A stretch of 64,000 nucleotides of DNA from a virus (Duplodnaviria > Heunggongvirae > Uroviricota > Caudoviricetes), in the IMG/VR virus record IMGVR_UViG_3300037851_000307, positions 51,635 to 115,634 of that record; one strand, 5' to 3'. A program made the translations under genes and the position numbers. Below the pieces are notes generated by a model that searched no databases, was not told where the DNA came from, and worked only from the letters and a program-made list of their open reading frames with translations. Position 1 is the first letter of the stretch, and every line of letters begins with the position of its first letter. Shown one piece after another: positions 24,401 to 54,900 of the stretch.

Positions 24401-25855
24401 GCAACAGCATCAACTGGTCTTGTTCAAGTATTTTCTGGTAACGTGTCTGCTGGAAATGGAATATCTGGAAATGTAAGCATTTACTCAGGTTCAACAAATG
24501 GCTCTGGCAGCTCAGGTAGCGTAAATGTTTCTTCAGGATTCACAAATGGTTCTGCAAATTCAGGAACATTTGGTATTGGTTCAGGTCATGCAAACGGTTC
24601 TGGTAACTCTGGTTACACGGTGTTGCAATCTGGTAACGCAAACACGGGCATGTCTGGTCAGTTAGATTTAAGAACTGGTAATGTAAGCGCTGGATCAAAC
24701 TCATCTGGTTTTATACAGATAATTACAGGTTCGGTAGCAAACAATAGTAACACTGGCTATATTGTGATGCGATCTGAAAACGCATCTGGAACTGGTCAAT
24801 CTGGCAGCATAGGTATAAATTCGGGCGATGTTGCGAATGGTGCTTCTGGTAACGTAAGTGTTTACTCTGGCAATCACAACGGCACTTCTGGTTCTGGTAC
24901 TGCACAAGTGTTGATCCAATCTGGTAACATTAACGGCGCATTGATAGGCGGAACTTCTGGCAATATAACAATAAATACTGGTAATGTATTTAATGCAGGA
25001 TCTACTGCAAATTCAGGTGATATCAACTTAACAACTGGCTTTATTAGTGGCGGTTCAGGTAATAGAGGAACTGTTAATATTACAGGTAAATATATTCAAC
25101 TGACTTCTGATGTTGGTGGAAACATTCACATGTTTCATACATTCAACGGCTCTACTACTTTCTTTGATGGAGGCACTCAGAAGAGTGCTATTTTCACAGG
25201 AAATCAAAATCAGTACAATGTTGATCTACATTCAGCATTTCAAGGTTCTAGTCAAAATGATAGAACTAATATAGGTATTTTAGCTGGTAGCGATGCCGGT
25301 GGTGCTGCACAAGGTGGTACTGTTCTTATAGCTGGTGGTTTTGGGGCAGTTAGCAACGGCGGTGACGTCCACATAAACAGTGGTGGTTCAATTGGTGGTA
25401 CCGGCGGCAATATATTATTAAGAGTTAATGGCTTAGATGGATTTAAAGGTAATATTATCTTTAGAGATCAATCAAATAACGATGGAAGCTCAGGTGTTGT
25501 AGATTACGTGTGGACACAAATTGATTCTGCGGGTCGTGGTACTTGGAAAGTAAACAAAGCTTTTACATTCTATTCTCCTAATCTCGATGGCGGCACATAT
25601 CAACTAACAGTATTACAAAATTGGGTGGCTGCTGGTGGTGGAACCGCAAATACAACGCTTAAGTTACCTAATACATCTGGTGGTGCTGTGCCACAAGGCT
25701 TTGTTTTTAAATTTGTCAATAAAAGTGCAACTTATGACATGATGGTGCAAGATTTTGGTGGCGGAGCAATTGTTACTGTGCCACCATCAACAGCAGCAGA
25801 TATAATTTTTAATGGTGGTTGGGATTATTATAAATATACAATTATCCCATACTAA
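21491..25855 (+). CDS. collagen-like tail fiber protein
   Basis: 1454 aa: about 60 Gly-X-Y triplets ([16 protein letters not shown]…) at the N-terminus, then a long Ser/Gly/Asn/Thr-rich repetitive body. Confidence 0.85.
21540..21723 (+). repeat. tandem 9-nt (Gly-X-Y) coding repeats
   Basis: ggtccacaagga / ggacctcaaggt units iterated. Confidence 0.8.
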
Positions 25856-31509: not shown

Positions 31510-31663
31510 CAATTGTTTCTTGTAGCGCCCTGATAGCACCAATTAACTGAGTTATCCTAGTGTCTATGTTGCTGAGTTCTTTTTCTACTGTTTCTTTAAA
31601 AACAAGGTGCTGTTCTAGTTCCTGTTGCAGTTGTTTTAGTTGATTTTCTACTATATGTTTCAT
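31442..31663 (-). CDS. hypothetical coiled-coil protein
   Basis: 73 aa; overlaps the 3' end of 31156..31509. Confidence 0.35.
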   Translation of the reverse strand: MKHIVENQLKQLQQELEQHLVFKETVEKELSNIDTRITQLIGAIRALQETIAMIDQSLQTENPQAPDLLPEKN

Positions 31664-32160
31664 TTATAAAACCACGGTTTTGTCGCGTTTGTCCACGACG
31701 GTTTAATCTTATCTTTTTGCCATTTAGTGACCATAGTTTTTCTATAGGCCTCATAAATGTCTTCTTCCTCTTTATACAAAGAACAGTTAGGAAAAGGCGT
31801 TTGTTTGCCTTCAGGTAAGTACTTAATGGCATCTTTTAAGCGCTGAAGGTTTGTGTCACCCCAATGCTCATGTCCATATCGCATCTTAAACTCAATAAGC
31901 AGGCCCATCATATGTTGCCAAAGCCATAAATAGTTGTCTTGGTTTTGCCTAGCCCAAACTGTACATGGGTGATTTTTGTGCGCTATCCTGTAGCCTTTTC
32001 CAGTTTGTTTAGCTATGGGGAGCTCAGATTCCGGACACCCATGTATGATAAGGGCCGTTGCCAACATCTGGCATGATTCGGTTATCATCTTATTGACGCG
32101 CTTATCGTCTAGGGCCGACGCGCTCTTAATGGGGTCCGGATCTGTCACAAAGATATTCAT
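31660..32160 (-). CDS. possible pyrimidine-dimer DNA glycosylase (T4 endonuclease V/DenV-like)
   Basis: Recalled similarity to T4 endoV: N-terminal 'MNIFVTDPDPIKSASALDDKRV' versus '[24 protein letters not shown]', and C-terminal 'KPWFYK' versus 'PTWYKYYG'. From memory only. Confidence 0.4.
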   Translation of the reverse strand: MNIFVTDPDPIKSASALDDKRVNKMITESCQMLATALIIHGCPESELPIAKQTGKGYRIAHKNHPCTVWARQNQDNYLWLWQHMMGLLIEFKMRYGHEHWGDTNLQRLKDAIKYLPEGKQTPFPNCSLYKEEEDIYEAYRKTMVTKWQKDKIKPSWTNATKPWFYK

Positions 32161-32705: not shown

Positions 32706-32984
32706 ATGTTAACTAAAAAAACTAAACAAAGACTTACAAACGCCCTAACTAGAAAAACACTAGCGGATGAGTTTGAAGCCAAACTTACAACTCCTGGTGC
32801 ATTAAGCTCAAAACTTAAGAGAGCAATTGAAGTTGCTTTTGCAAGTAAGGCTGCAGCATTAGATATTATTGCTAAGCTTCAAAGTGGTCCAGGTGCTTTA
32901 AAGAAAGACACTAAGGCTAGAATCTTGGCTGAAATGGCTGAAAAGAAAGCTGCTAACGAAGTTATTAACGACTTAGAATCTTAA
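32706..32984 (+). CDS. hypothetical protein
   Basis: 92 aa; RBS 'ggagaacatATG'. Confidence 0.4.
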   Translation: MLTKKTKQRLTNALTRKTLADEFEAKLTTPGALSSKLKRAIEVAFASKAAALDIIAKLQSGPGALKKDTKARILAEMAEKKAANEVINDLES

Positions 32985-33385
32985 TATAGGGCTCGCAGGA
33001 CATACTTGTTTAGTTCTGCGAGCTTATTTCTAATATAATCCCTATCATTCAATTTTCTATTACGCCCTGAGGGATGGGGCATCGCAAAATGATCAATCTG
33101 GGCATGTTTTAGAACGTTTTCGGCCGTTTTTCCGACCGCTATTATCTTGTAATTTTTAAAACTTTCAAGTTGCGTCCGGATGGGATTTATCTGATGAGAG
33201 TTGAGGGGCTTATTGTTCTCTGTTTTCTCATTACTTACATTAATGAAGTGTAGGTCAGCAGGTATACCTGCAAACCACTTATCAATGGTCTTACGGGACT
33301 TTGTAGATGGGTGAAACGCTGAGTTGTCAGGTGATGCTTGTGATGGATTGCTGCCGACAATTAAGACCTTAAGCATCTTCTCCAC
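32981..33385 (-). CDS. hypothetical protein (GSNPS…HPSGRN motifs, possibly UDG-superfamily-like)
   Basis: 134 aa; weak resemblance to family 4/5 UDG motifs; start lies in the conserved junction motif. Confidence 0.35.
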   Translation of the reverse strand: MEKMLKVLIVGSNPSQASPDNSAFHPSTKSRKTIDKWFAGIPADLHFINVSNEKTENNKPLNSHQINPIRTQLESFKNYKIIAVGKTAENVLKHAQIDHFAMPHPSGRNRKLNDRDYIRNKLAELNKYVLRALY

Positions 33386-33650
33386 CTAAGATAATCTGGT
33401 CAATCATATACTCGTTATACTTTTCTTGTAATAGCTTGTTACCCTTCTCACAAATATCTTTAATCGGGTCATAATCCTTCTTGTCAGAAAGAAAAACCAA
33501 ATGTGATACTTTGATCACTTGAGTAAAGTGCTCTTGCGTTTTCATGTTTATGACAACGGCTGTATAAGACCTATATAAGTCCACCATTGCATTCTCATAA
33601 ATACGTAACTCAAAGCAGCCTAATGTGTGTTTAAATTCTGGTTGTGTCAT
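33369..33650 (-). CDS. small protein ending in -IILGGEDA
   Basis: 93 aa; its 3' end overlaps the junction motif. Confidence 0.45.
   Translation of the reverse strand: MTQPEFKHTLGCFELRIYENAMVDLYRSYTAVVINMKTQEHFTQVIKVSHLVFLSDKKDYDPIKDICEKGNKLLQEKYNEYMIDQIILGGEDA
33375..33398 (-). promoter_or_regulatory. conserved gene-junction motif AGATTATCTTAGGTGGAGAAGATG (instance 1)
   Basis: Encodes -IILGGED of the upstream ORF plus the SD GGTGGAG and start codon of the downstream ORF. Confidence 0.5.
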
Positions 33651-34099
33651 TTTGCCCTATAAGTTAATTCTAAGAAACCTTCAGGAGTATCTAGTACATC
33701 AATAGATAAATCCTTCATCTGACAAATATTATCAAAGTCTCTGTACTTTTCTTTTGCAATAACGCGCGTAATACCACATTGCCACAATAGTCGCATACAT
33801 GCTGCACATGGAGTTAATGTACATACAAGTGTTGTATCTTCCATAGAAACGCCATGCCGCGCGCAGTTGGCGATTAGATTCTGCTCTGAGTGAACTATGT
33901 ATGGGTATTTTTCTGGTCTAGTGTTAGGTAATTCACTATCGTCTGCGCCTCTCACGAAGCCATTAAAACCTGTTGCTATGATTGCACCGGTTTTATTGTT
34001 GACAAGCACAGAACCTACTTGAGTTTCAGCGTCATGTGACCTAGCTGACACTGCTACGCTAACATCCATGTACGTCTGAAGCTTAGTTGGCCTAGTCAT
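33647..34099 (-). CDS. dCMP (deoxycytidylate) deaminase
   Basis: 'HAETQ…' and 'TLTPCAAC' match the CDA-fold H(A/C)E … PCxxC zinc motifs; about 150 aa, typical of phage dCMP deaminases. Confidence 0.85.
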   Translation of the reverse strand: MTRPTKLQTYMDVSVAVSARSHDAETQVGSVLVNNKTGAIIATGFNGFVRGADDSELPNTRPEKYPYIVHSEQNLIANCARHGVSMEDTTLVCTLTPCAACMRLLWQCGITRVIAKEKYRDFDNICQMKDLSIDVLDTPEGFLELTYRAK

Positions 34100-34946
34100 G
34101 TAATGCGCTCCTTGGTTTTGTGAAATACCAATAACGTCTCGCTGTGACTATTTCGTTCTCAAATATCTCTGGATCAGTAGAGTATCTGCTGTTAATGGGT
34201 TTAACTTTTAACATCATAATGTCTTTAATAGAATTTTGACTTGCCCATGTGAGTGCAGACTGTTTTCGCCACGAAGTTAGAGATGCACCAAGTGGACCCA
34301 CATTTATCTCTGCAAGCAAAGGAAATTCTATAGAGACTATCTCTAGTTCATCTACAGAATAACATGTATCTTTATCATATGTCCTATATATTCTGTCGCC
34401 TGGTTTTAACTTTTTAAATGCTTCTCTTGCTAAAGCTGATGTAGATGTATTTTCTCTTATTGCTCTATTTTGTTTTCTGATTTGTTCTCTTTTGGCTTTG
34501 TTATTTTTAAAAGCCTCCAGTGGATCAAAAGACTTTTCATCATCAGACAAGATGACGTGCGCAACTTGATCTGGGTCTTGCTCGAACCACTGATTATCTA
34601 GATCGATAGAAGTACAACTCATAACAGAGACGCCTTCTTTGCCATTTGTAGATATTACTTTTACGTAAGGTATACCATATTCATCTATGTGAATGCACTT
34701 ATATTTTCTTGGAACGGGTGACGAGTAGCTCACTTTTTCTACTGAAACTTCTGTTTGACCAGTTGATCGATTGTATCCCATCATTTTTCTTACTAAGATA
34801 TCACCAACATCAAAATTAAGTTTATGGCGATTTTTCAAGAATCTGTGTGCCTCAGACTCTTTCATTGCAATTTCTACTCTTTTTTTATCTTGCTCGGATA
34901 GTGTATCTATTAGATTGCCGGGATAGTTTGGATCTGCATGACTCAT
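34092..34946 (-). CDS. hypothetical protein
   Basis: 284 aa. Confidence 0.55.
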   Translation of the reverse strand: MSHADPNYPGNLIDTLSEQDKKRVEIAMKESEAHRFLKNRHKLNFDVGDILVRKMMGYNRSTGQTEVSVEKVSYSSPVPRKYKCIHIDEYGIPYVKVISTNGKEGVSVMSCTSIDLDNQWFEQDPDQVAHVILSDDEKSFDPLEAFKNNKAKREQIRKQNRAIRENTSTSALAREAFKKLKPGDRIYRTYDKDTCYSVDELEIVSIEFPLLAEINVGPLGASLTSWRKQSALTWASQNSIKDIMMLKVKPINSRYSTDPEIFENEIVTARRYWYFTKPRSALHD

Positions 34947-34973
34947 GTATAATACCCTTTTGGGATATTATAC

Positions 34974-35222
34974 CTAATCTTGTAATGGAAAACGTTCGCA
35001 CTTGTCGCAGATCATGTATTCATCGTCAGAATCTGGTTGCTTTCTGTAAACCCATTTATGCGGTGGACAGTTTTCTTTTTTCTTCTGTAGTGCCATTGCT
35101 TGCTGCTGAGATAATGCTTCAGCTTCTCCAAGCTTTTTAATGAAATAAATAACTCCAATAACCAACAGTACTGTTATCAAACTATCCATCGATGTCCTCA
35201 TCATTTTCTGATGTTGAATCAC
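34974..35222 (-). CDS. small membrane-anchored Cys protein
   Basis: N-terminal TM helix, C-terminal 'CDKCERF'. Confidence 0.4.
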   Translation of the reverse strand: MIQHQKMMRTSMDSLITVLLVIGVIYFIKKLGEAEALSQQQAMALQKKKENCPPHKWVYRKQPDSDDEYMICDKCERFPLQD

Positions 35223-35421
35223 TGTCTATTTTAGACGTTAGATCGCTATCAGGTATTACAGGAACCTCTCCACCATCACCCTTTGGTTTAAGCTTTTTAA
35301 CCTTAACCTTCTGCACTACTTTTCCTCTAATAGGACAGTTGAATGTGATTTCTTGTTCCACTTCTTCTAATACATTTGGGTCTTGTTTCTTTTGAATTTT
35401 CTTGGTTTTCTTTTTAGCCAT
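35182..35421 (-). CDS. small basic protein
   Basis: 79 aa, KKKTKKIQKK N-terminus. Confidence 0.4.
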   Translation of the reverse strand: MAKKKTKKIQKKQDPNVLEEVEQEITFNCPIRGKVVQKVKVKKLKPKGDGGEVPVIPDSDLTSKIDSDSTSENDEDIDG

Positions 35422-35964
35422 CTAAACCTGCAACTTTTTCCATTCGTTGATGATAATACCTTTTACTGCGTCAGCGTATGCTTTAACTGGCTTTGGTAAG
35501 TTATTTTGTCTAGCGAACTTTAACCAGTTAGCAAGCGGACCACTTATTATGATCTCATTATATACACTAACTGGGCTATTAACTTGCGATATAAAGCGGT
35601 CACATCCATCTTTTTGGTATGCTGCTGGATTTATTAGAAGTGCATCTTGTGTTCTTTTTAGATCGTCTGCTATATCATGTGCTACTTCTAGATTTTGCCC
35701 ACCGACGTCTGTTATATCAGGAGTAAAAGCTTCTAATGAGTCAACGGGGAGATCGACAACATTAAAGTTAAACTTCATGAGATTTAACTGGACGAACAGT
35801 GGGCACTTGATAACTAAAGTCATAGAAGATAAAGCGTACAAGTTTTGATCAAGGTTCTTTTTAAGAAGCTCAACAGAGATTTTATGTAATAAATCTCCAT
35901 CGTTTGATGTGGACATCAAAGCAACATAACCTTTATCTAGTACGTTTATCTTATTGAGTAACAT
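35422..35964 (-). CDS. hypothetical protein
   Basis: 180 aa. Confidence 0.5.
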   Translation of the reverse strand: MLLNKINVLDKGYVALMSTSNDGDLLHKISVELLKKNLDQNLYALSSMTLVIKCPLFVQLNLMKFNFNVVDLPVDSLEAFTPDITDVGGQNLEVAHDIADDLKRTQDALLINPAAYQKDGCDRFISQVNSPVSVYNEIIISGPLANWLKFARQNNLPKPVKAYADAVKGIIINEWKKLQV

Positions 35965-35965
35965 A

Positions 35966-36220
35966 TTATTTCTTTACAAACCTGTAGTATAGTTCAAATG
36001 GTGTAGCTATTATCATAGCTACTATGATGGCCACAAGTATACCAGGTATAGAGGCAACCATTCCAGACACTCTTAAAAACTTTTCAAGTCTTGTTTCTGG
36101 GGTGAAATCCCATGACGTTAAGTGATCATCAAGAGTTAGCATAGTATGGGCAACTAAAATAGTATATGCAACTAGACATAAGCTACCAAAGATGATTTGA
36201 CCTATAGATAAAGTTATCAT
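35966..36220 (-). CDS. small two-TM membrane protein
   Basis: 84 aa, two hydrophobic helices. Confidence 0.45.
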   Translation of the reverse strand: MITLSIGQIIFGSLCLVAYTILVAHTMLTLDDHLTSWDFTPETRLEKFLRVSGMVASIPGILVAIIVAMIIATPFELYYRFVKK

Positions 36221-36744
36221 AAGTCTTCTTCCTCATCATCTTGAGTGGTAGCAGGAGCCGTAGACTTTTCTTCTTCAAGAGGATTACGTGGATCTTCTGT
36301 TTTATCTGCAGACAAGATAGTTGCAGTATGTGTGAAATCGCCTTGCTGCAAGATAGCATCTTCGATGATACCTTCAGCAACTAAATCTTGCCAGTGGGCT
36401 TCGATGTAATCGATAGTTTTTTCATCCAAGAACTGGATAGGCTTTGTTCTATCTTTATCCATGATGATAACTTTTGCGTGGTGTTGATGCTGCTCCCACA
36501 TGTAGCCAACTTCTTCAACCATCTCAAGATACTCATATGGACCATGGGCTGTTGAAGTTAAGTAGCGACCTTTATCTCTTGGACCTGTATTTACTGCAAC
36601 CATGTAAGTTTTGCCTCTTAAAGGCTCTAAATCCATGTTTGCAAACTCAGCTATAAAGCCTTCGTCGCTTGTTTTATTGATTGTTGTTGGAACTGCTGCG
36701 GCAGCTGGTATATTAGCTGAACCGTTCATCTGTTGATCGCTCAT
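36217..36744 (-). CDS. hypothetical protein with acidic C-terminus
   Basis: 175 aa. Confidence 0.5.
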   Translation of the reverse strand: MSDQQMNGSANIPAAAAVPTTINKTSDEGFIAEFANMDLEPLRGKTYMVAVNTGPRDKGRYLTSTAHGPYEYLEMVEEVGYMWEQHQHHAKVIIMDKDRTKPIQFLDEKTIDYIEAHWQDLVAEGIIEDAILQQGDFTHTATILSADKTEDPRNPLEEEKSTAPATTQDDEEEDL

Positions 36745-36776
36745 ATTATCTCCCCGTTTTCTATATGTCGAATCTG

Positions 36777-37241
36777 TTATGGTTTCAATACCTCTTCATC
36801 CACAGTAGCATCAGTGTGCGCAGCAAGAAGGTCATCTAGTGATATACCTACGTCAGTAGGTTCTAGATGAATAGAGTAATCTACGTTAAATATTGGTCTT
36901 GAGTTTGGTTGTTTTTTCAAAGCAAATCTTCTATACTTTCTGTTATATCTATCTTCACGTTCCTGTAGAAGTTGTTCTCTATCTGATAATGGAGCTGATA
37001 TGGTATTGATACTATGTAAATGCTTTGTTATTAGTAGTTTATCAATAACCTGTTGTCTGAGTTCTGCAGGTATCTGCTTAAATGCTTCAAGCTTTAAGTT
37101 TTTTTCAACTAAAAGTCGCTGTCTTGTTAGTTCTTCTAACTCTGTTTTTTGTTCATCAGTTAGTCCACTTTCATCTAAGTGGTGTCTCAATGAGTCTAAG
37201 AATTCATCTGTTTCTATGTCGATAAATATCTGCTTACTCAT
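36777..37241 (-). CDS. hypothetical protein
   Basis: 154 aa. Confidence 0.5.
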   Translation of the reverse strand: MSKQIFIDIETDEFLDSLRHHLDESGLTDEQKTELEELTRQRLLVEKNLKLEAFKQIPAELRQQVIDKLLITKHLHSINTISAPLSDREQLLQEREDRYNRKYRRFALKKQPNSRPIFNVDYSIHLEPTDVGISLDDLLAAHTDATVDEEVLKP

Positions 37242-37684
37242 CGTTCACCTCTTAATTTAAGTACCGCTTGCATTGCGACAATCATCTCTTCATGAGATAA
37301 ATGAATATTTCTTATTTGATTGCAGCTTCCACAACAAGGAACAACATTACTCAACTCATATCCTTTTAGATTATCTAATCTATCTAAACCAACTCCAGTT
37401 TCTTTAGATATATCTTTTTTACAGTAAAGACAACCATTGGATATCAGTTTAGAATAAGTTTCAAAAGATAAACTTATAAACAACTTTTGGTGATTACACT
37501 TAAACTGTAATTTTTGAAACCTTCTCCAAGGTTTAGTGGCAATTGTTTTTTGATAAGAATTTGTTCTATCAGAATATCTTTTTGCAACATCAGGACTTCT
37601 TCTATAGCAAAGCCTAGAACAATATACTTTATCTTTTCTTTTACAATCAAAAGATTTTAAACACGTTACACACTGTTTTGTCAT
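37238..37684 (-). CDS. HNH endonuclease (HNH_3-like)
   Basis: Cys clusters plus 'GLDRLDNLKGYELSNVVPCCGSCN'; paralogous to 55545..56093. Confidence 0.75.
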   Translation of the reverse strand: MTKQCVTCLKSFDCKRKDKVYCSRLCYRRSPDVAKRYSDRTNSYQKTIATKPWRRFQKLQFKCNHQKLFISLSFETYSKLISNGCLYCKKDISKETGVGLDRLDNLKGYELSNVVPCCGSCNQIRNIHLSHEEMIVAMQAVLKLRGER

Positions 37685-38442
37685 TTTTCTCCAAGCATTT
37701 TCAGCACTTTATCTTCATCTCTTTCATATATATGAAGACTATGAACAATGTGTGTATATGTTCCTTTTGTTAAGTTGGGGTATTTTTCTTTTAGTTCATC
37801 TATCATTTTGTCCATAAGTGAAATAAACCACGGTAGATCATAAGCCAAACCTAACACTAAATCATTACTTCTCATGACTACAGTGAAATAAAGTTTGTCT
37901 TCTCTTATTAGAAAGTTTCCATTAAGTGTACATGTTTGATCCTTGTTACCCATCCACTGATGTTCAGGTAAAGAGAAGCGCAAAATTGCCTGTCGTGTAT
38001 CTTTATCTGCCAACAGACACTGCTTCGCCCATTCCCATGGTGTTCTGTATTCACCAACACCATTTTTATGCTCATAAAACTCGTTACCATGAGAAGCATT
38101 CTTCCATATAAGATATCCATAAGCAGAATTAACCGTTCCATCTGGATTAGCGATGGTACCCCAGAACTTAGAGGCTTTTACAAAGTCTTCTACTTTATTA
38201 GAGCATGAGTTGTATAGTTCTACTTCTTTGGCTGTATAGGATTCAATGATCTTATTGCGTTCTGCGTCTTTTGTAGTAATAGCTTTGGCAGTTGGATTAG
38301 CAATAGAAAAGCTATAATCAAGGCTCTCACGAACTGGAATGCCGCGAGGACTAGACCGAAAATCGTAATTATAATAGATATCACGAAGAGTCCCAAGGTA
38401 CGCTTCATCGATGTTATCGTAGAGTTTTCTTCCATTTCCCAT
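37681..38442 (-). CDS. deoxypyrimidylate hydroxymethylase (thymidylate-synthase superfamily, T4 gp42-like)
   Basis: Motifs 'VNSAYGYLIW', 'TCTLNGNFLIREDKLYFTVVMRSNDLVLGLAYDLPWF' and 'HSLHIYERD' parallel the TS/dCMP-HMase motifs (xNSxYGxxIW; CTxxxQ…MRSND…G…D; SLHxY). At 253 aa it is gp42-sized. Confidence 0.7.
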   Translation of the reverse strand: MGNGRKLYDNIDEAYLGTLRDIYYNYDFRSSPRGIPVRESLDYSFSIANPTAKAITTKDAERNKIIESYTAKEVELYNSCSNKVEDFVKASKFWGTIANPDGTVNSAYGYLIWKNASHGNEFYEHKNGVGEYRTPWEWAKQCLLADKDTRQAILRFSLPEHQWMGNKDQTCTLNGNFLIREDKLYFTVVMRSNDLVLGLAYDLPWFISLMDKMIDELKEKYPNLTKGTYTHIVHSLHIYERDEDKVLKMLGEK

Positions 38443-38829
38443 CTATTCTCCTGGTTCGCTTTCGAACAGTACTTCTTCCAGGTTGGCATGACGTACGCCA
38501 TAGCCATAACGCTTTTTAGTTAGTTTCTTCATTAGTTGACCAGTACGATTAAACAAATGCTGAAACACAAAAGTAGATTCTTTAACGCTCTTACCTTCTT
38601 TTGTCTTGTAGTCTGGATTGTAGTTCTGTAGCGCGACTACGACTTCAGTGCGTAAGTATTGCCTGAAGTCTCGCATTGTGTAGCCTGTGTTGCCAATTGA
38701 TATGTGATCCTGGTCTTTTCTCTGGCTTGCTTCATTCCAGTTTTTAACTATAGAATCACGGATATAACTTTCAACCATCGCTTCGTATTTGAATATGTCC
38801 TCATTAGTTACTTTCCGTTCTTTGCTCAT
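38443..38829 (-). CDS. hypothetical protein
   Basis: 128 aa. Confidence 0.5.
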   Translation of the reverse strand: MSKERKVTNEDIFKYEAMVESYIRDSIVKNWNEASQRKDQDHISIGNTGYTMRDFRQYLRTEVVVALQNYNPDYKTKEGKSVKESTFVFQHLFNRTGQLMKKLTKKRYGYGVRHANLEEVLFESEPGE

Positions 38830-40459: not shown

Positions 40460-42070
40460 TTATAAGTTGCCTTTTGAGAACTCGGTCATGATTTGTGGAG
40501 TCGAAGTATCGAAACCAACAACATCAAGCATATTCTTATCAGAAGGATCTGCGATGGTGAAACCATTTGCGCAAGTTCCTACTGTGATAAGTTTAGCTTC
40601 AGGCACCGACATTCCAGAGCGATATTTGTTTAAAGCTTGGAAAGGGTGCATTGAGCCAGCATAAGTTTCATTATCAGTATAGATAGCAAACGTGTCGATA
40701 TGTAACTTTTGTGCTAAAGCCCATTGCATAGGCAACGAACAGTCTGTTCCACCCCATGGAGCTTTTTGCATTGTTTTCAACACATCATCTAAACGTTTAC
40801 GCTTAGAAAGATCAAGTCTGTCTATTCCTGATGAGCCGTAACCAGAAGACGAGAAGTATACAACTTCTGAATTAGGTTCAGCTTTTAAAGTAACCATTGC
40901 CATGGCTCCAGCAGCTTCTGCCGCCGTCAAACCTGTTCCAGCGATTCTTGCTCCAAACATAGAACCTGAGCAATCAAGCGCAAGAAGATGGTTTTTGCCA
41001 GAAGTTTCTACGTTTCCAAAGGAAGTATAGAAAGCTTCATCCAACGCATCTATGATGTTGGTTACTGGTGACCAAGTCAGCGACCCCTTATCGCCTCGCC
41101 CTTGCTTATAAATAGCAAGCGCGTTCAGGATAGTGATGGGGTGAACACGCGATCTCTTGATCTGTTCAGCGTTATTCAGACGCTCAACGACTAGCTTAGT
41201 GTTAGTATCTAGGTTTGATTTCAACAAACCTACAGCAGTCATCTTAGCTAGATTTCTTAAAGTTGCAGTCATAGGCATATTCTGATTAAGAGCTTCCCAT
41301 ACTTCTCTTGAGTTCAAGAGTTCAGTGGGAAGCGCTTCACGAGGTAGCCCATACTTTTGTATCAAAGCAACAGCTTGCTTAGTATCTCCAGCTCCAAGAG
41401 TTTGGATTTCTTCAAAACCTTGAACAAGCGCGTGCTTTGTGGTTACTTCTTTGCCGGCTGCATATCTTAATAAGTCGTTCAATGCTGCATCGTTAGATGA
41501 AGCATGGCAAAGACGTAACACATCGCGGTGAGTAAAGTTGTTTCTGTTGCGGTACTTGATGATGTTCATAGCAACTTTATCAATATCATTTTGAGTATAA
41601 AACTTTGCAACACCATTTCTTAGTCCACGAGACCAACCGCGTAATGCTTGGATATTCTCAGTGAACTGAAATAAATGAGTTCCGATTCTACATACATCGG
41701 TGATAGCTTTATATGCTGCATTCTTTGTGGCTTCATCGCCAAAAGTTGTTGCTAAAGCTAACGCAAAGATTGCAGGGTCATTTTTAGGTGCTCGACCAGC
41801 TACAGAGATTTCAACGATTGTTTTCACAGTTCGCAAACCATCTTGCTTGATGCAATCAATAACAGCTTGCGCGTTGTCTACTGTCATCTTTTTCTCTGAC
41901 GCGTAGTATGAACCACCTTCGTTACCTAAGATAAGAAATCGATTCAGTTTAGAGAAGCTGTCTTGAGCAAAAACAAAACCACCGGCATTATTTTTAACCT
42001 GATCTTTACCTGGAACTTGTTGTGTTTGAGGAGTTGTTTTTGTGTTGAAGTGCTTAGTATAAGACATACT
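40460..42070 (-). CDS. rsr: Ro60/TROVE-domain ribonucleoprotein orthologue (Rsr) with C-terminal vWA (MIDAS DCSGS)
   Basis: 'GGFVF…RFLILGNEGGSYY…DPAIFALALA' matches the Ro60 TROVE signature (RFL.LGSEGGTYY); C-terminal 'LALDCSGSM' vWA MIDAS. Start set at MSYTKHF, which has the SD 'aaaggagaaagtATG'. Confidence 0.85.
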   Translation of the reverse strand, partial: SMSYTKHFNTKTTPQTQQVPGKDQVKNNAGGFVFAQDSFSKLNRFLILGNEGGSYYASEKKMTVDNAQAVIDCIKQDGLRTVKTIVEISVAGRAPKNDPAIFALALATTFGDEATKNAAYKAITDVCRIGTHLFQFTENIQALRGWSRGLRNGVAKFYTQNDIDKVAMNIIKYRNRNNFTHRDVLRLCHASSNDAALNDLLRYAAGKEVTTKHALVQGFEEIQTLGAGDTKQAVALIQKYGLPREALPTELLNSREVWEALNQNMPMTATLRNLAKMTAVGLLKSNLDTNTKLVVERLNNAEQIKRSRVHPITILNALAIYKQGRGDKGSLTWSPVTNIIDALDEAFYTSFGNVETSGKNHLLALDCSGSMFGARIAGTGLTAAEAAGAMAMVTLKAEPNSEVVYFSSSGYGSSGIDRLDLSKRKRLDDVLKTMQKAPWGGTDCSLPMQWALAQKLHIDTFAIYTDNETYAGSMHPFQALNKYRSGMSVPEAKLITVGTCANGFTIADPSDKNMLDVVGFDTSTPQIMTEFSKGNL

Positions 42071-42145
42071 TTCTCCTTTAAAAATAGCGGATAAATTGAT
42101 GACCATGGGGTTTTCGCCAAATGATAACCCATAATCTACGACCCG
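42071..42145 (-). ncRNA. Y-RNA-like module 5 (begins CGGGTCGTAGATTATGGGTTATCA, ends TTATCCGC + T-run)
   Basis: Shares the 5' consensus YGGGTCGWWAGA..TTNGGTTAYCA and the 3' TTATCCRY-Tn with four other units. Confidence 0.4.
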
Positions 42146-42430: not shown

Positions 42431-42575
42431 GCTTAAAAATAAACTGATGGATAAAAGTATCGACATTCGGAAGATGACTTTTGCTCTACCAGCTGAGCTA
42501 CTTCCGCTACGGTGCAGAAGGTGGGATTCGAACCCACGACCCAAAGTTTGTTGATAACCAAATATCTACGACCCA
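42431..42575 (-). ncRNA. Y-RNA-like module 3 with circularly permuted tRNA-like domain (YrlA-like)
   Basis: Reading the minus strand: ACTTT-GGGTC-GTGGG TTCGAAT CCCAC (T-arm) – CTTCTGC accgta GCGGAAG (acceptor-like stem closed by a loop) – TA – GCTC AGCTGGTA GAGC (D-arm) – A – AAAGT. The anticodon-stem equivalent ACTTT/AAAGT joins the domain to the rest of the RNA. Confidence 0.6.
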
Positions 42576-45115: not shown

Positions 45116-45320
45116 CTAAAATTATAGAGTCAGCCTTTTCAGACTCAAGCTCGTCAATGCGTTTGTTTAAAAGCTCAATCTCTTTGTTGAGGAAATCAAA
45201 GTTTTTGTTACTCATATCAATCTCCTGATTTAGCTGAGTAACAAATTTTCTCAACGCAGCTTCATTGTTCTCAAAGCGTTCTTTGATCGCTTCAACAAGC
45301 TTAGTGATACCGTCCATCAT
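45081..45320 (-). CDS. small coiled-coil protein
   Basis: 79 aa. Confidence 0.45.
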   Translation of the reverse strand: MMDGITKLVEAIKERFENNEAALRKFVTQLNQEIDMSNKNFDFLNKEIELLNKRIDELESEKADSIILGDNNGRKDDSG

Positions 45321-46780
45321 TATCTTCTTCCTCTAGGTTTTTCAGAGTCAGGAATCTTGATTGTGGTACCTAAGCGCTTGATCGGGTGATCTGCTTGACC
45401 TTGGCGCGAGATGATAAACAGCGTGGTCGGAAACTTAACTCCTGGTGGAACCATCTGCTCAAAGTTAACATCACCATAGCAACCGTCAGTTACAAAGATC
45501 GCAAGATCTGGTCTGCGTTTAGCAATATCTTCAAAAGATTTCGTTAAACATGTGCCGCCAGATTCAACTTTGCTTTTATCTAAACGTTCACCTAGTTTAT
45601 ATTCTTCACTGTAATAGTTTTCAGTGTGGAATAAGTTAAGGCGACATTTTCTGCTACCCGTACGTAAGAAATTATCAACAACCTCTAAGAACTCATTTAA
45701 TTCTTCAGTAGAGATTGAACCTGACGTATCGAGATAGATATTAAGTTTAGGTAAGTCACCAACTTTTGTGCCTGGCGCTTTATTGCCAAAACGTTTTGAC
45801 TTGCGTGTCCAAGTGTGCTTACGCTCGTGACCTGATGCTGACTTTTTAATAGCCAACAATATCATAGATCTGTAATCTAACTCAGACTTACGCGTCTTGA
45901 TTTCTTGTAAAAGATCTTTGATAGAACCTGGAAGATCGTTGTAGTCAAGCTTTTGCTTGATCATCGCACGCTTGATAAGATCTTCTGTGGCTTCAAGCAT
46001 TTCTTTTTCTTCAGCTGCGCCATCCCACATATGCTCATCTAGAGTTTGTGGAGTGCCTTTACCGCCACCTTGTCCACCTTCACCATCGCCTTCTTCGTTA
46101 TCTGGGTCATCAAGGCGCTGTAAAAGTTTTTCGTAGTAGTATTCCATGGTTTGATCTTTTTTCCATGGGGTTTTAGCGTTTGTTTGTGGATCTACGTCAA
46201 AGAAGTCTTTGATGTCGATGCAAAAACCTGGACAGTTTTCATTAGGAAACATTTGTACGCTGCCGTCAGGTAGTTGTTGTGGCTCACAGCGACCGTTAGG
46301 TGCAGTAGAACACTGATCGCAGCCTTCTGGTAAGCCTTTAATATACTGGTTGATCGCCATGTCAGCGCCAACGTTCATAAGCTGACGTTTTCTTGAAGAA
46401 ATCTTCAAGAACGGTACGCGAAATGGATGCTTGTTCGTGATGTGGTTAATCTCGTGAAGTAACACAGCACTTCGCGCTAAATCACCGCGCTCTTGACGCG
46501 TCATACCTGGAATTGACTTAGAGTTGTTAAGTTTATCAACAAAGAACTTTGGATTGATGTACATATCCCAGCGTTTTGCTTCAGTATTAAACATAATACC
46601 GGCTGTTGGAATATAGTGTGAATACATGATATTCAAACACTGAAGAATTGAACCTATGAAAGGCGCTTTCTTTGTTACATTATAAATCGAAGTAGCAAGC
46701 GCTTTTGATTTCGCTTCTACTGGTACGAACTCTTTATCTAAGAGTTCCTTTGTTATGTTCGATCTGCGTCTATCGCTCAC
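45320..46780 (-). CDS. vWA-domain protein with HExxH metallopeptidase motif (partner of the MoxR ATPase)
   Basis: 'LHEINHITNKH' is an HExxH motif; C-terminal 'IYLDTSGSIS' is a vWA MIDAS; sits directly downstream of the AAA+ gene. Confidence 0.7.
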   Translation of the reverse strand: MSDRRRSNITKELLDKEFVPVEAKSKALATSIYNVTKKAPFIGSILQCLNIMYSHYIPTAGIMFNTEAKRWDMYINPKFFVDKLNNSKSIPGMTRQERGDLARSAVLLHEINHITNKHPFRVPFLKISSRKRQLMNVGADMAINQYIKGLPEGCDQCSTAPNGRCEPQQLPDGSVQMFPNENCPGFCIDIKDFFDVDPQTNAKTPWKKDQTMEYYYEKLLQRLDDPDNEEGDGEGGQGGGKGTPQTLDEHMWDGAAEEKEMLEATEDLIKRAMIKQKLDYNDLPGSIKDLLQEIKTRKSELDYRSMILLAIKKSASGHERKHTWTRKSKRFGNKAPGTKVGDLPKLNIYLDTSGSISTEELNEFLEVVDNFLRTGSRKCRLNLFHTENYYSEEYKLGERLDKSKVESGGTCLTKSFEDIAKRRPDLAIFVTDGCYGDVNFEQMVPPGVKFPTTLFIISRQGQADHPIKRLGTTIKIPDSEKPRGRR

Positions 46781-46890: not shown

Positions 46891-48033
46891 TTAAGTTTCC
46901 GCTTTGTTGCCGTCTACTTTCGTAGCGCGGTTAATGCGGATATTATCTCTGATAATATCAGTCATTTCAGGGTGACGTTTTACAAACTCACGGAAGTAGT
47001 TAAGAACTGCGCCGTTAGATTGCTTAAAGCCACAACCTTTGATGAGATTGATCGCTTGGTCTGAAGGAATAATCTTAGCGACTTCTGCCATCAGATCTTC
47101 GTCGATTTGATTATCTTTACACTTATCTTTTAAGCCACCGTAGTGCTTAATGATTGAATCAACAGTCATAGCGATCATCTCACCTTGGTAGTTGTTTTTA
47201 TCAGATTGTGCTTCAAGACGCTTTAACGCTGCCGGACGATCTTTTAAAAGATCTTCAGCGGTAACCGGAGCTTGATCGTAACAGAACTTGTGGTACTGTA
47301 AACCGATGTCGTTACCTAAGATTGAGATTGCAGTCAATCTATGTAAAGCGCGTGACTTATGAACTCCTGCTCTTTCAGCAGCGTTCATTTTTGACCAAGT
47401 ACGTGGAGAAACGTATTTGCCTTCTGGACCAAGCTCTTTTGGAGTTTTGTAGATCCAAAGACCTGAGTTGATAAAGCGTTGAACTTTGTCATCCCAGTTT
47501 GCAGAATCAGCGTATTCGCTGAATGATAAGTGGTCGAACTCGATTTCGTACTCTTCGAAACGGTCTTTTAAGGCTGCGTCCATGTTGTTAACATCGTACT
47601 CAGAGCCTTCAGGGTTAATACAGCCTGCGATTACCCAACCGTCAGGTAAGGTATATTTGTGAACTTTACGGTCAGTTAAGATCTGCATTAAGCAGTTCAT
47701 TACGCCGGTAGTTCCGCGGTTTGGTTCTTCGAGAAGTAATAAACCTCTACCGCTTGTTGGCCAGAAATCTGGCAGTTCGTGAACTGTTCTACGAACACCA
47801 TTCACTTCGAAAACCTCAGGAAACCCGATTAAGTCAGGTGCTTCCATGTACGCGATACGAAGGTCGATGAACCCGAAAGTTGGGTCTTCTTTCTTCTGTT
47901 TCGCTACCCACTGCTGACATACCTGCGATTTTCCGAGACCTGCTTCACCCGTAAATAATGGGTTAAAGACTTCGTTGATGTCCCTTGCTGCTAACGCAAG
48001 GTCCAATACAACACCAATATTTGCTGCTTTCAC
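46891..48033 (-). CDS. MoxR-family AAA+ ATPase
   Basis: Walker A 'GEAGLGKSQV'; 'LLLEEPNRGTTGVMNCLMQILTDRKV' is the MoxR sensor/ENR-like segment; about 380 aa. Confidence 0.75.
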   Translation of the reverse strand: MKAANIGVVLDLALAARDINEVFNPLFTGEAGLGKSQVCQQWVAKQKKEDPTFGFIDLRIAYMEAPDLIGFPEVFEVNGVRRTVHELPDFWPTSGRGLLLLEEPNRGTTGVMNCLMQILTDRKVHKYTLPDGWVIAGCINPEGSEYDVNNMDAALKDRFEEYEIEFDHLSFSEYADSANWDDKVQRFINSGLWIYKTPKELGPEGKYVSPRTWSKMNAAERAGVHKSRALHRLTAISILGNDIGLQYHKFCYDQAPVTAEDLLKDRPAALKRLEAQSDKNNYQGEMIAMTVDSIIKHYGGLKDKCKDNQIDEDLMAEVAKIIPSDQAINLIKGCGFKQSNGAVLNYFREFVKRHPEMTDIIRDNIRINRATKVDGNKAET

Positions 48034-49163: not shown

Positions 49164-49979
49164 ATGGCAACACAGCAGACAGAACTTAGCGATCAATTGA
49201 TATATGGCATCGATCTTAAGGCACGCCGGATTCATTTCGGGGTTGGTCTAGATCATACAGAAGAGAACCCAGGTATGTTTAGTGGGGCCTCTGTAGAATT
49301 AGCCATTAGGGCGATCCATAAGATGATCCAAGAGGCTCCTAATAAGCCAATTGAGATACACATGAACTCTTATGGCGGCGATGCTTATTCTATGATGTAC
49401 TTAATGGATGTTATCCTATCTAGCCCATGTCAATTTAAGTTCTTTGGCGGTGGAGCTATAATGAGTAGCGCTACTTGGATAATGGCTGTATGCGATGAGC
49501 GATGGCTGTACCCTAATGCAACTATCCTTATTCATGATGGTTATGTAGAAGGTACTGTAAGAAACACCACAGATCACCAAATTGATGCTAAGGAAAATAA
49601 GCGCCTTCAAGATAGACTTAATACTATTTATGCTGAAAACTCTAGAATGCCAAAAGAGTTCTGGGATGATATAGTTCAACGTGACTTATACTTAACTGCG
49701 GAAGAAGCCATAATGTTTGGTTTAGCAGATAAGCTTGTTGAGTACAAGAAGCGCGGAAACTTACGTAAATCTCGTCAAGGCATCTTAGCAAAGCAACCAG
49801 AGTCTAAAGAGTTTAAGAAGCTAATTAAGAATGTATACGACAGGATCGAAAGGGTTTCTGTACCAAACATTTCATTGAATGTAGCTAAAAAAGAAGAATC
49901 TGATCCTAAGGTGATTGTAGACGATACTCCAGTTGTTCAACCTGAAGTTCCTGTAGTTGAGCCAGAGAAGAAAGATTAG
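49164..49979 (+). CDS. ClpP-like serine protease
   Basis: 'IHMNSYGGDAYSMMYLMDV…GGGAIMSSATWIM…ILIHDGY' matches the ClpP Ser/His motif pattern; start moved to MATQQ… at 49164. Confidence 0.7.
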   Translation: MATQQTELSDQLIYGIDLKARRIHFGVGLDHTEENPGMFSGASVELAIRAIHKMIQEAPNKPIEIHMNSYGGDAYSMMYLMDVILSSPCQFKFFGGGAIMSSATWIMAVCDERWLYPNATILIHDGYVEGTVRNTTDHQIDAKENKRLQDRLNTIYAENSRMPKEFWDDIVQRDLYLTAEEAIMFGLADKLVEYKKRGNLRKSRQGILAKQPESKEFKKLIKNVYDRIERVSVPNISLNVAKKEESDPKVIVDDTPVVQPEVPVVEPEKKD

Positions 49980-54074: not shown

Positions 54075-54153
54075 TGGTTGCGGAGCCTGGAGTCGCACCA
54101 AGTACACCTTCTAGCTTATGAAACTAGTGAGCCGCAGTTGCTCGATCCCCGCA
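54075..54153 (-). tRNA. tRNA-Met-like (anticodon CAT), atypical 3-nt 8-10 connector and T-loop TGCGACT
   Basis: Acceptor TGCGGGG/CTCCGCA with A-CCA; D-arm GAGC-AACTGCG-GCTC; anticodon arm CTAGT-TTCATAA-GCTAG. Confidence 0.5.
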
Positions 54154-54177
54154 CGTTATAGTTATAAATCGAATCTG

Positions 54178-54858: not shown

Positions 54859-54879
54859 ATTACCCCCGATATACACTCA

Positions 54880-54889: not shown

Positions 54890-54900
54890 AAAGTAAAAAG

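What the first reader, a model, noticed from the sequence alone, without database searches (positions are those of the whole stretch)
33647..38442. Candidate DNA base-hypermodification module: gp42-like deoxypyrimidylate hydroxymethylase, dCMP deaminase and two Tmk-like kinases
37681..38442 carries thymidylate-synthase-fold motifs laid out as in T4 dCMP hydroxymethylase (…NSAYGYLIW…TCTLNGN…MRSNDLVLG…HSLHIY) and is hydroxymethylase-sized at 253 aa. dCMP deaminase (33647..34099) would supply dUMP. Two thymidylate-kinase-like P-loop proteins are encoded inside the structural block; the 6696..7532 copy has the intact P-loop (EGLDRTGKTT) and the 13942..14601 copy has a degenerate Walker A (GVYKTT). 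P-loop kinases of this type phosphorylate 5-hmdU in DNA in phages with hypermodified thymine. Three HNH endonucleases are also present; HNH endonucleases often accompany modified-DNA phages. Together this suggests hm-pyrimidine DNA (5-hmC or 5-hmU, possibly further modified) rather than canonical bases.
Basis: partly seen in the sequence, partly recalled or inferred. Interest (0 to 1): 0.65.

Follow-up and report, generated by a model that had tools for sequence, protein, structure and literature searches.

The report
Predicted phage dCMP hydroxymethylase gene block
An uncultivated large phage carries a T4-style enzyme predicted to turn dCMP into 5-hydroxymethyl-dCMP, so its DNA probably contains 5-hydroxymethylcytosine; this is a known strategy in a new phage lineage, and nothing found supports further "hypermodification".

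Summary
The genes and motifs exist as described. ORF 37681..38442(-) has the thymidylate-synthase fold but is not a thymidylate synthase. By sequence and by predicted structure it sits closest to the CMP hydroxymethylase MilA and to T4 gp42. It carries every published diagnostic residue of a dCMP hydroxymethylase (E. coli ThyA numbering):
- Asp for N177: cytosine, not uracil.
- Asp for L143: hydroxymethyl, not methyl.
- D169 kept: not a 5-hydroxy-dCMP synthase.
- Ser167 and Arg126 equivalents: deoxyribose, not ribose.

All 120 close homologues share these residues. So the enzyme takes dCMP, and the dCMP deaminase competes with it for substrate rather than feeding it.

The 5-hmU and DNA-kinase part of the finding is not supported. 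ORF 13942..14601 is an ordinary thymidylate-kinase homologue whose Walker A is damaged only in this genome. ORF 6696..7532 matches kinases only at the P-loop and a DRS-Y motif.

No glycosyltransferase, carbamoyltransferase, gp56-type dCTPase or DHFR was found in about 75 kb surveyed.

The hydroxymethylase-to-deaminase block is syntenic in related 176–180 kb contigs. It also holds a ThyX-fold protein without the ThyX motif and a small UDG-family protein.

Verdict: a new member of a known kind, the T4-type pre-replicative 5hmC pathway.

The parts
37681..38442 (-). TS-fold enzyme predicted to be deoxycytidylate 5-hydroxymethyltransferase (5hmdCMP synthase). Key residues: E73, Y108, R150, D168, C171, R191, S192, D194, D202, H237, Y239.
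   Evidence: Pfam TS 2.5e-10. PDB by sequence: MilA 1.2e-19, T4 gp42 4e-15, ThyA >=3.5e-3. Family profile: MilA 3.8e-25, gp42 1.7e-22, ThyA >=2.3e-6. AF2 pLDDT 90; Foldseek MilA 3.9e-18, gp42 1.7e-14. Diagnostic residues, read against the rules in PMC13326640 and PMC5175136.
33647..34099 (-). dCMP deaminase with an intact zinc site (HSE, PCAAC).
   Evidence: PF00383 3.5e-20; PHROG dCMP deaminase 3.6e-34. 60-62% identical orthologues at the same position in relatives.
13942..14601 (+). Thymidylate-kinase homologue. Its Walker A reads GVYKTT in place of the GVGKTT found in relatives.
   Evidence: Pfam Tmk 3e-16; TIGR00041 76 bits (cutoff 83.25); PDB Tmk 8e-14. Relatives L010 and L011 have GVGKTT; the window codon is TAT against GGY.
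6696..7532 (+). P-loop protein with a C-terminal coiled-coil extension; possible (d)NMP or deoxynucleoside kinase of the Tmk/dNK superfamily. Its role as the 5hmdCMP kinase is inferred only.
   Evidence: Only the P-loop matches Tmk (Pfam 0.0045, TIGR00041 1.4e-4). The P-loop and DRS-Y-GE motif are conserved in a 51%-identical relative. A weak dNK match, E 0.21 over residues 3-107.
35422..35964 (-). ThyX-fold protein lacking the ThyX (RHR...S..R) motif; conserved member of the block; function unknown.
   Evidence: Profile against PDB ThyX 6.9e-6. AF2 pLDDT 90.3; Foldseek T. maritima FDTS 5.3e-11, TMq 0.76. 281 homologues. 44-45% identical orthologues in syntenic relatives.
32981..33385 (-). Small UDG-superfamily protein (GSNPS and HPSGRN motifs), conserved just downstream of the deaminase.
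   Evidence: PF03167 3.8e-10. Orthologues carrying the UDG Pfam domain at the same position in L007 and L008.
34092..34946 (-). Conserved 284-aa protein of unknown function, overlapping the deaminase start. Relatives carry a second paralogue directly after the hydroxymethylase.
   Evidence: BLASTP against L007/L008; alignment A5. No Pfam, PHROG, NCBIfam or PDB match.
38443..38829 (-). Conserved 128-aa protein abutting the hydroxymethylase start; function unknown.
   Evidence: 68-69% identical in relatives, as conserved as the hydroxymethylase itself. No family match.
36217..36744 (-). Conserved 175-aa protein of the block; function unknown.
   Evidence: 42-48% identical orthologues in the same order in L007 and L008.
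37238..37684 (-). HNH/endonuclease-VII-family gene, probably a mobile insertion and not part of the pathway.
   Evidence: phrog_1035 3.9e-10. Absent at this position in relatives, which have a 246-248 aa gene there.

Best explanation
The block encodes a T4-type, pre-replicative route to 5-hydroxymethylcytosine DNA. The TS-fold enzyme (37681..38442) uses Cys171 to attack C6 of dCMP and takes the one-carbon unit from methylene-tetrahydrofolate. Instead of hydride transfer, it lets water add to the exocyclic methylene, giving 5hmdCMP and regenerating THF. The enzyme identity and its substrate and product specificity are shown at the level of published sequence and structure determinants. The chemistry is inferred from T4 gp42 and MilA. 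5hmdCMP must then be phosphorylated and incorporated by the phage DnaE-type polymerase (inferred). The kinase is not identified; the 278-aa P-loop protein is the best in-window candidate, while the Tmk homologue looks thymine-type and is P-loop-damaged in this genome. The dCMP deaminase works in parallel, diverting dCMP to dUMP for dTMP synthesis by the host enzyme, as cd does in T4. The small UDG-family protein may police U or 5hmU in DNA (speculative). Whether replacement of C is complete, and whether 5hmC is further decorated, cannot be decided from the sequence available.
For: Nearest solved relatives are hydroxymethylases and not ThyA, by sequence and by predicted structure. All bacterial ThyA equivalog models score far below their cutoffs.

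Diagnostic residues, read against the experimentally grounded rules of Lee et al. NAR 2026 and Zhao et al. 2016:
- N177 -> D202: cytosine.
- L143 -> D168: hydroxymethyl.
- D169 kept as D194: not a 5ho synthase.
- S167 = S192 and R126 = R150: deoxyribose.

The same four determinant residues (L143, D169, N177 and S167 equivalents; position 127 differs) occur in T4 gp42, and the position -3 Asp also occurs in the SPO1-like dUMP hydroxymethylase. The Xp12 enzyme, from a 5mC phage, differs: Asn at position -3, a ThyA-length C-terminus and an adjacent DHFR. All 120 close homologues share the residues, as do 125 of 137 distant representatives.

No DHFR is found in the window, consistent with a THF-regenerating hydroxymethylase. 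The hydroxymethylase...deaminase-UDG block is syntenic in 176-180 kb relatives. Co-occurrence of a TS homologue with dCMP deaminase is a reported signature of cytosine-modified metaviromic contigs (PMC8670742).
Against: There is no biochemical or nucleoside data, and the residue rules are correlative. No gp56-type or MazG-type dCTPase and no gp1-type dNMP kinase were recognised in the roughly 75 kb examined, so full replacement of C is unproven. Relatives have only a trimeric dUTPase-family gene. About 40 kb of the 115.6 kb contig could not be read. The enzyme has Gln where ThyA and gp42 have the second phosphate-binding Arg (R127), as do the SPO1-like enzyme and the AB434P2 homologue.
Confidence: 0.72

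Rival explanations
1. Ordinary thymidylate supply: the dCMP deaminase makes dUMP and the TS-fold protein is a divergent ThyA making dTMP. This is how the source database (JGI) names it.
For: Pfam Thymidylat_synt hit and the JGI name 'thymidylate synthase'. Catalytic Cys, Glu, Arg, His and Tyr are conserved. Adjacency to a dCMP deaminase.
Against: Asp replaces the uracil-reading Asn177, and Asp replaces Leu143. Only 14 residues follow the HxY motif, against 55 in ThyA. All ThyA equivalog models are far below cutoff. The closest solved relatives are hydroxymethylases. No DHFR.
Confidence: 0.04
2. dCMP C5-methyltransferase, giving 5-methylcytosine DNA as in Xanthomonas phage XP12.
For: Cytosine-type Asp at the N177 position is shared with the Xp12 enzyme, and a dCMP deaminase is adjacent in both.
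Against: The Xp12 enzyme has Asn (not Asp) three residues before the catalytic Cys, a V-P-C context like ThyA, a 61-residue C-terminal region and a neighbouring DHFR. The query has Asp, Q-T-C, 14 residues and no DHFR. The published rule links an acidic residue there with hydroxymethylation.
Confidence: 0.08
3. 5-hydroxy-dCMP synthase (RB69 gp48 / DLP3 gp80 / HY126 AfhB type), a flavin-dependent hydroxylase feeding glycosylated 5-hydroxycytosine.
For: Same fold. N177D and an acidic L143 position are shared with that group. The AfhB structures are structural matches with TMq 0.72-0.76.
Against: The diagnostic D169N change is absent: D194 is kept in the query and in 119 of 120 close homologues. 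AfhB ranks far below MilA and gp42 in sequence searches. No arabinosyl- or glycosyltransferase genes were found.
Confidence: 0.03
4. A 5-hydroxymethyluracil route. Either the enzyme takes dUMP, or 5hmdCMP is deaminated to 5hmdUMP and phosphorylated by the thymine-type Tmk homologue. DNA then carries 5hmU, possibly further modified through DNA kinases.
For: A dCMP deaminase, a Tmk homologue keeping the Arg that aligns with the thymine-O4-contacting Arg of E. coli Tmk (Tmk structural knowledge, not tested here; alignment), and a UDG-family protein are all present. The deamination route cannot be excluded from sequence.
Against: The SPO1-like dUMP hydroxymethylase keeps Asn at position 177, while the query and all close homologues have Asp. 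There is no significant match to the 5-hmdU DNA kinase family (HMUD2, E 0.032, P-loop only), and no aGPT-Pplase-type or other thymidine-hypermodification families in the Pfam scans. T4 has the same enzyme pair and makes 5hmC.
Confidence: 0.06

Closest known systems
T4 gp42 deoxycytidylate 5-hydroxymethyltransferase with cd dCMP deaminase (T-even 5hmC pathway)
   Same: TS fold. Catalytic Cys, Glu and Tyr. Asp at both the N177 and L143 positions. The Ser and Arg that select deoxyribose. A short C-terminus. A co-encoded dCMP deaminase.
   Different: Only about 26-30% identity. No gp56 dCTPase, gp1 dNMP kinase, td/frd or alpha/beta-glucosyltransferase homologues were recognised. The replicase is DnaE-type, and the phage lineage is unrelated: the best isolate match is Myxococcus phage Mx1, terminase 29%.
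MilA CMP 5-hydroxymethylase (mildiomycin biosynthesis, Streptomyces)
   Same: Best sequence and structure match (1.2e-19; Foldseek 3.9e-18, 28% identity). The same Asp/Asp signature.
   Different: MilA has Ala176 and Lys133', which favour ribose. The query has Ser192 and Arg150, like the dCMP enzymes. MilA also has a roughly 100-residue C-terminal extension. The context here is a phage.
Xp15-type TS homologue + dCMP deaminase + 5hmC carbamoyltransferase clusters (MetaGPA, eLife 2021)
   Same: A TS homologue with the Asp/Asp signature next to a dCMP deaminase.
   Different: Those clusters carry a carbamoyltransferase, and often a PRA-PH/MazG-like pyrophosphohydrolase. Neither is present in the window or in the syntenic relatives examined.
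ThyX / flavin-dependent thymidylate synthase (for ORF 35422..35964)
   Same: Same fold over essentially the whole length (TMq 0.76).
   Different: The ThyX motif RHRxxSxxxxSxR is lost (K64-F65-N66; the Ser/Arg segment is deleted). The helical insert carrying His53 is missing. The protein is about 40 residues shorter.

Membership tests
Deoxycytidylate 5-hydroxymethyltransferase (T4 gp42 type) | Thymidylate-synthase fold with the catalytic Cys, Glu60 and Tyr96 equivalents | tested here: met
   C171, E73 and Y108 align to ThyA C146, E58 and Y94. AF2 model pLDDT 90; Foldseek T4 dCH 1.7e-14.
Deoxycytidylate 5-hydroxymethyltransferase (T4 gp42 type) | Asp at the ThyA-N177 / gp42-D179 position (cytosine specificity) | tested here: met
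   D202; 120 of 120 close homologues have Asp. Rule.
Deoxycytidylate 5-hydroxymethyltransferase (T4 gp42 type) | Acidic residue at the ThyA-L143 position (admits water, giving a hydroxymethyl product) | tested here: met
   D168, three residues before C171, in 120 of 120 homologues. Also Asp in gp42, MilA and the SPO1-like dUH; Leu in ThyA; Asn in Xp12.
Deoxycytidylate 5-hydroxymethyltransferase (T4 gp42 type) | Ser169 and Arg123' equivalents (deoxyribose over ribose) | tested here: met
   S192 and R150; rule.
Deoxycytidylate 5-hydroxymethyltransferase (T4 gp42 type) | Catalytic formation of 5hmdCMP from dCMP and CH2-THF | not testable with these tools
   Needs an enzyme assay or in vivo nucleoside LC-MS.
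Thymidylate synthase ThyA | Asn177 reading uracil, hydrophobic Leu143, a closing C-terminal segment, and a score above the curated equivalog cutoffs | tested here: not met
   Asp at both positions. 14 residues after HxY against 55. NCBIfam 38.6 against 174.6 bits, 26.6 against 327 bits, and similar for the rest.
5-hydroxy-dCMP synthase (RB69 gp48 / AfhB type) | Asn at the ThyA-D169 position | tested here: not met
   D194 is retained; 119 of 120 homologues have Asp. Rule.
T4-type complete hmC system | dCTPase (gp56), hmC glucosyltransferases and a dNMP kinase (gp1) | tested here: not met
   tblastn of gp56 and beta-gt against the window, L001 and L002 found nothing below E 0.8. No such Pfam families were found. 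gp1 itself was not queried. About 40 kb of the contig was not examined.
5-hmdU DNA kinase (HMUD1/2) of thymidine hypermodification | Significant full-length match to the family | tested here: not met
   PF18747 E 0.032, 13.9 bits against a cutoff of 25, P-loop only, for 13942..14601. Nothing for 6696..7532.
Thymidylate kinase (13942..14601) | Full-length Tmk homology with the DR motif | tested here: met
   PF02223 3e-16 (60.1 against 27 bits). PDB Tmk 8e-14 over residues 7-218.
Thymidylate kinase (13942..14601) | Walker A GxxxxGK[ST] | tested here: not met
   GTEGVYKTT here, against GTEGVGKTT in two relatives at 59-63% identity. The codon is TAT against GGY.
ThyX / FDTS (35422..35964) | ThyX fold | tested here: met
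   Foldseek 5.3e-11, TMq 0.76; profile-PDB 6.9e-6.
ThyX / FDTS (35422..35964) | ThyX motif RHRxxSxxxxSxR (dUMP and FAD binding) | tested here: not met
   Aligned residues are K64-F65-N66, and the SxR segment falls in a deletion.

The most novel reading that the evidence does not exclude
The conserved, syntenic block around the hydroxymethylase is a new cytosine-tailoring pathway. In this reading 5hmC, or its nucleotide, is further modified by enzymes no current profile recognises. Candidates are the ThyX-fold protein that has lost the thymidylate-synthase motif but keeps invariant polar residues, the duplicated ~250-280-aa family that flanks both the hydroxymethylase and the deaminase in relatives, and the highly conserved 128-aa partner.
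Probability: 0.12. Interest if true: 0.75.

Novelty: new member of a known kind. Interest (0 to 1): 0.4.

Why it matters
The finding would place 5hmC DNA in a large, widespread and uncultivated phage lineage unrelated to the T-even phages. Contigs in this lineage run 115-180 kb and carry a DnaE polymerase, with GroEL (seen in related contigs) and Ro60 (in this window); the hydroxymethylase has more than 1,300 database homologues. It corrects the automatic 'thymidylate synthase' annotation, and it gives concrete genes to clone for testing cytosine modification. It also flags a ThyX-fold protein of unknown role that always travels with the hydroxymethylase. The chemistry itself is textbook, so the gain is in distribution and annotation and not in a new mechanism.

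Tried and rejected
- **Near-identical DNA in GenBank phages:** none found.
- **Recovering the rest of the 115.6 kb contig:**
  - An exact-pattern scan of IMG/VR found nothing.
  - The metagenome scan returned only relatives at 40-72% identity.
  - DNA-search loci are only about 6 kb.
  - Exact look-ups are limited to window proteins.
  - About 40 kb therefore stayed unread.
- **Right-flank view via a Band_7 relative (L029):** gene order is rearranged there, so it says nothing about this genome.
- **284-aa conserved protein:** only 2 homologues by word search. No Pfam, PHROG or NCBIfam hit, and no profile-PDB hit.
- **154-aa ORF 36777..37241:** tested as a possible remnant of the relatives' 246-aa paralogue; no similarity.
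- **278-aa P-loop protein:** the profile built with one relative gave only a non-significant dNK match.
- **HD_4 protein 61455..61943:** considered as a possible dCTPase and rejected. It is a RelA/SpoT-type HD hydrolase.
- **Canonical Y RNA or tRNA next to Ro60:** only a sub-threshold YrlA match.

Full report
**Observation.**
- ORF 37681..38442(-), 253 aa, matches Pfam Thymidylat_synt (E 2.5e-10, above cutoff).
- ORF 33647..34099(-) is a dCMP/cytidine deaminase (PF00383, 3.5e-20; PHROG dCMP deaminase, 3.6e-34) with HSE and PCAAC motifs.
- Three phrog_1035 HNH/endonuclease-VII proteins lie at 4226..4735, 37238..37684 and 55545..56093.
- The two P-loop ORFs carry the quoted Walker A strings.

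**What the TS-fold protein is.** It is not ThyA.
- The single sequence hits MilA (CMP hydroxymethylase) at 1.2e-19 and T4 gp42 at 4e-15. Genuine thymidylate synthases reach only 3.5e-3 or worse.
- A profile of 38 family members widens the gap: MilA 3.8e-25, gp42 1.7e-22, ThyA no better than 2.3e-6.
- All NCBIfam ThyA equivalog models score far below their cutoffs, for example 38.6 against 174.6 bits.
- An AlphaFold model (pLDDT 90.2) finds MilA first (Foldseek 3.9e-18, 28% identity), then T4 dCH (1.7e-14), then ThyAs at 14-18% identity.

**Specificity residues.** Two papers give experimentally grounded determinants.
- Lee et al. (NAR 2026, PMC13326640), in E. coli ThyA numbering:
  - N177 reads uracil, and Asp there selects dCMP.
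  - L143 excludes water, and Asp or Glu there goes with hydroxymethyl products.
  - D169N marks the newly discovered flavin-dependent 5-hydroxy-dCMP synthases.
- Zhao et al. (Sci Rep 2016, PMC5175136):
  - Ser167/Ser169 and Arg126'/Arg123' select deoxyribose.
  - MilA's Ala176 and Lys133' select ribose.

I aligned the query with E. coli ThyA, T4 gp42, a SPO1-like dUMP hydroxymethylase, Xp15, MilA and 257 homologues. The ThyA sequence came from memory; its numbering was verified by the residues found at 18 landmark positions. The query has C171 (C146), D168 (L143), D194 (D169 kept), D202 (N177), S192 (S167) and R150 (R126). This is the gp42 pattern at these determinant positions (the second phosphate-binding Arg, R127, is Gln in the query).

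All 120 close homologues (63-79% identity) share these residues, and 125 of 137 distant representatives have the Asp/Asp/Asp pattern.

Two controls behave as expected. The SPO1-like enzyme keeps Asn177. The TS homologue of the 5-methylcytosine phage Xp12 has Asp177 but Asn at the L143 position, a ThyA-length C-terminus (61 residues after HxY, against 14 in the query) and a DHFR gene next door. No DHFR was found in the window.

The best reading is therefore a dCMP hydroxymethylase making 5hmdCMP.

**Consequences for the rest of the interpretation.** With a cytosine-specific enzyme, the dCMP deaminase does not feed the hydroxymethylase. As in T4 (gp42 plus cd), it diverts dCMP to dUMP for thymidylate.

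The '5-hmdU DNA kinase' idea is not supported.
- ORF 13942..14601 is a full-length thymidylate-kinase homologue (Pfam 3e-16; PDB 8e-14; TIGR00041 76 bits, just under its cutoff of 83).
- Its only HMUD2 signal is E 0.032 over the P-loop.
- It keeps the Arg that aligns with the residue which, in E. coli Tmk, contacts thymine O4 (Tmk structural knowledge; alignment).
- Its Walker A Gly-to-Tyr change is peculiar to this genome. Two IMG/VR relatives at 59-63% identity read GVGKTT, and the codon differs at two bases.

ORF 6696..7532 matches kinases only at the P-loop (EGLDRTGKTT, identical over that motif to yeast Tmk) and a DRS-Y-GE motif. Both are conserved in a 51%-identical relative. The best profile hit is a non-significant deoxynucleoside kinase match, E 0.21. 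It is the best in-window candidate for the kinase that 5hmdCMP needs, but that is inference.

**Search for tailoring and exclusion functions.** I scanned essentially all ORFs of the window against Pfam. They were concatenated into pseudo-proteins with linkers so as to fit the caps. The scans found no glycosyltransferase, carbamoyltransferase, MazG/PRA-PH, dimeric dUTPase/gp56 or DHFR. tblastn with T4 gp56 and beta-glucosyltransferase against the window and the two flanking loci found nothing.

The 10 kb upstream of the window holds a DnaE-type polymerase, RecA, a gp32-like SSB (identified by eye) and an Mre11-like phosphoesterase. Relatives carry a trimeric dUTPase-family gene, an N6/N4 DNA methyltransferase, GroEL and SbcC a few kb further on.

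About 40 kb of the 115.6 kb contig could not be retrieved. 'Hypermodification' therefore remains conjecture, and complete replacement of C is unproven.

**Context and conservation.** There is no near DNA match in GenBank phages. The closest isolate by terminase is Myxococcus phage Mx1, at 29%.

The hydroxymethylase has 1,369 word-search homologues, and 3,341 representatives at E<=1e-3. In two relatives on 176.5 kb and 180 kb contigs the block is syntenic. The order there is:
1. the 128-aa protein (68-69% identical);
2. the hydroxymethylase (68-72%);
3. a 246-248-aa protein;
4. the 175-aa protein;
5. the ThyX-like protein;
6. small ORFs;
7. a ~270-aa protein;
8. the dCMP deaminase (60-62%);
9. 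the UDG-family protein (43-48%).

The 246-248-aa protein is a paralogue of the window's 284-aa protein (alignment A5). In the window an HNH gene and an unrelated 154-aa ORF occupy its place. The HNH is therefore a mobile insertion and not evidence about DNA modification.

**ThyX-fold protein.** ORF 35422..35964 has no Pfam, PHROG or NCBIfam hit. A profile of 58 homologues hits T. maritima ThyX at 6.9e-6 over its full length. The AlphaFold model (pLDDT 90.3) matches FDTS structures at 5.3e-11, TMq 0.76. The RHR...S..R ThyX motif is replaced (K64-F65-N66, with the Ser/Arg segment deleted), so it is not a canonical flavin-dependent thymidylate synthase. Its constant association with the hydroxymethylase is unexplained, and it is the main hook for a more novel reading.

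**Verdict.** The module is real, and its core enzyme is very probably a dCMP hydroxymethylase. The phage most likely makes 5hmC DNA by the T4-type pre-replicative route. This is a new member of a known kind, of moderate interest.

Noticed in passing
window 35422..35964 (-): A 180-aa protein with a confident ThyX (flavin-dependent thymidylate synthase) fold, but with the catalytic RHR...S..R motif replaced or deleted. It has 281 homologues and always sits inside the hydroxymethylase-deaminase block of this phage clade. Invisible to Pfam, PHROGs and NCBIfam.
   Followed up: yes
window 32981..33385 (-): A small (131-134 aa) UDG-superfamily protein with MUG/SMUG-like motifs (GSNPS, HPSGRN), conserved directly downstream of the dCMP deaminase in relatives. 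It could remove U or 5hmU from DNA. The true start is probably ATG 33376, behind an SD-like GGTGGAG.
   Followed up: partly
window 13984..13986 (codon 15 of ORF 13942..14601): The invariant Walker A glycine of the thymidylate-kinase homologue is Tyr here (TAT). Two relatives at 59-63% identity have Gly (GGC/GGT), a two-base change, so the kinase may be inactive in this particular genome.
   Followed up: partly
window 40460..42106 (-) and 42479..42545 (-): A Ro60/TROVE + vWA protein (PF25045 7.8e-59, PF05731 2.1e-46), with a YrlA-like (bacterial Y RNA) tRNA-like element in the adjacent non-coding stretch (Rfam RF02553, 35.8 bits, E 8e-6, below the gathering score of 69).
   Followed up: partly
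window 54075..59372: A cluster of 15 tRNA genes on both strands, including an unusually long (92 nt) tRNA-Ile with anticodon TAT.
   Followed up: no
window 37238..37684 (-) and 36777..37241 (-): The HNH gene and a 154-aa ORF occupy the position where syntenic relatives carry a 246-248-aa paralogue of the conserved 284-aa protein (34092..34946). This suggests replacement of that paralogue by a mobile endonuclease cassette.
   Followed up: partly
window 33369..33650, 57262..57483, 57850..58089, 60853..61092, 61085..61288 (all -): Many small early ORFs end in a near-identical peptide, ...(I/L)ILGG(E/G).... At 33369..33650 these codons (TTAGGTGGAGAA) contain the Shine-Dalgarno sequence of the overlapping downstream gene. 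The shared 'motif' is probably a translational-coupling artefact and not a protein family.
   Followed up: partly
window 45320..46780 (-) and 46891..48033 (-): A DUF2201 vWA-like putative metallopeptidase next to a MoxR-like AAA ATPase; function in the phage unknown.
   Followed up: no
window 51291..52225 (-): Three tandem paralogous small proteins (123, 96 and 101 aa) sharing a FWFDEM...AICP.T.FLMY core.
   Followed up: no
window 21491..25855 (+): A 1,454-aa presumed fibre protein with an N-terminal collagen-like G-X-Y repeat run, followed by long Gly/Ser/Thr/Asn-rich repeats.
   Followed up: no
window 31660..32160 (-); 49976..50446 (-); 61455..61943 (-): A T4 endonuclease V-like pyrimidine-dimer glycosylase (PF03013 2.7e-7), a PNKP-type HAD phosphatase domain (2.5e-34), and a RelA/SpoT-type HD hydrolase (TIGR00691 1.1e-19).
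   Followed up: no
L014 3769..4305 and 4326..5066; L026 3184..3699 and 3714..4445 (relatives, upstream of the region homologous to L002): Related contigs encode a trimeric dUTPase-family protein (PF00692 3e-22) next to an N6/N4 DNA methyltransferase, plus GroEL- and SbcC-like proteins (identified by eye from the translations; not included in the Pfam scan). The window's own genome probably has them in the unread part of the contig.
   Followed up: partly
L005 3838..4500 (Agathobaculum phage AB434P2, OP172633.1): The gene is annotated 'deoxyuridylate hydroxymethyltransferase', but it has Asp at the N177 position and Asp at the L143 position. By the same rules it is more likely a dCMP hydroxymethylase.
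   Followed up: no
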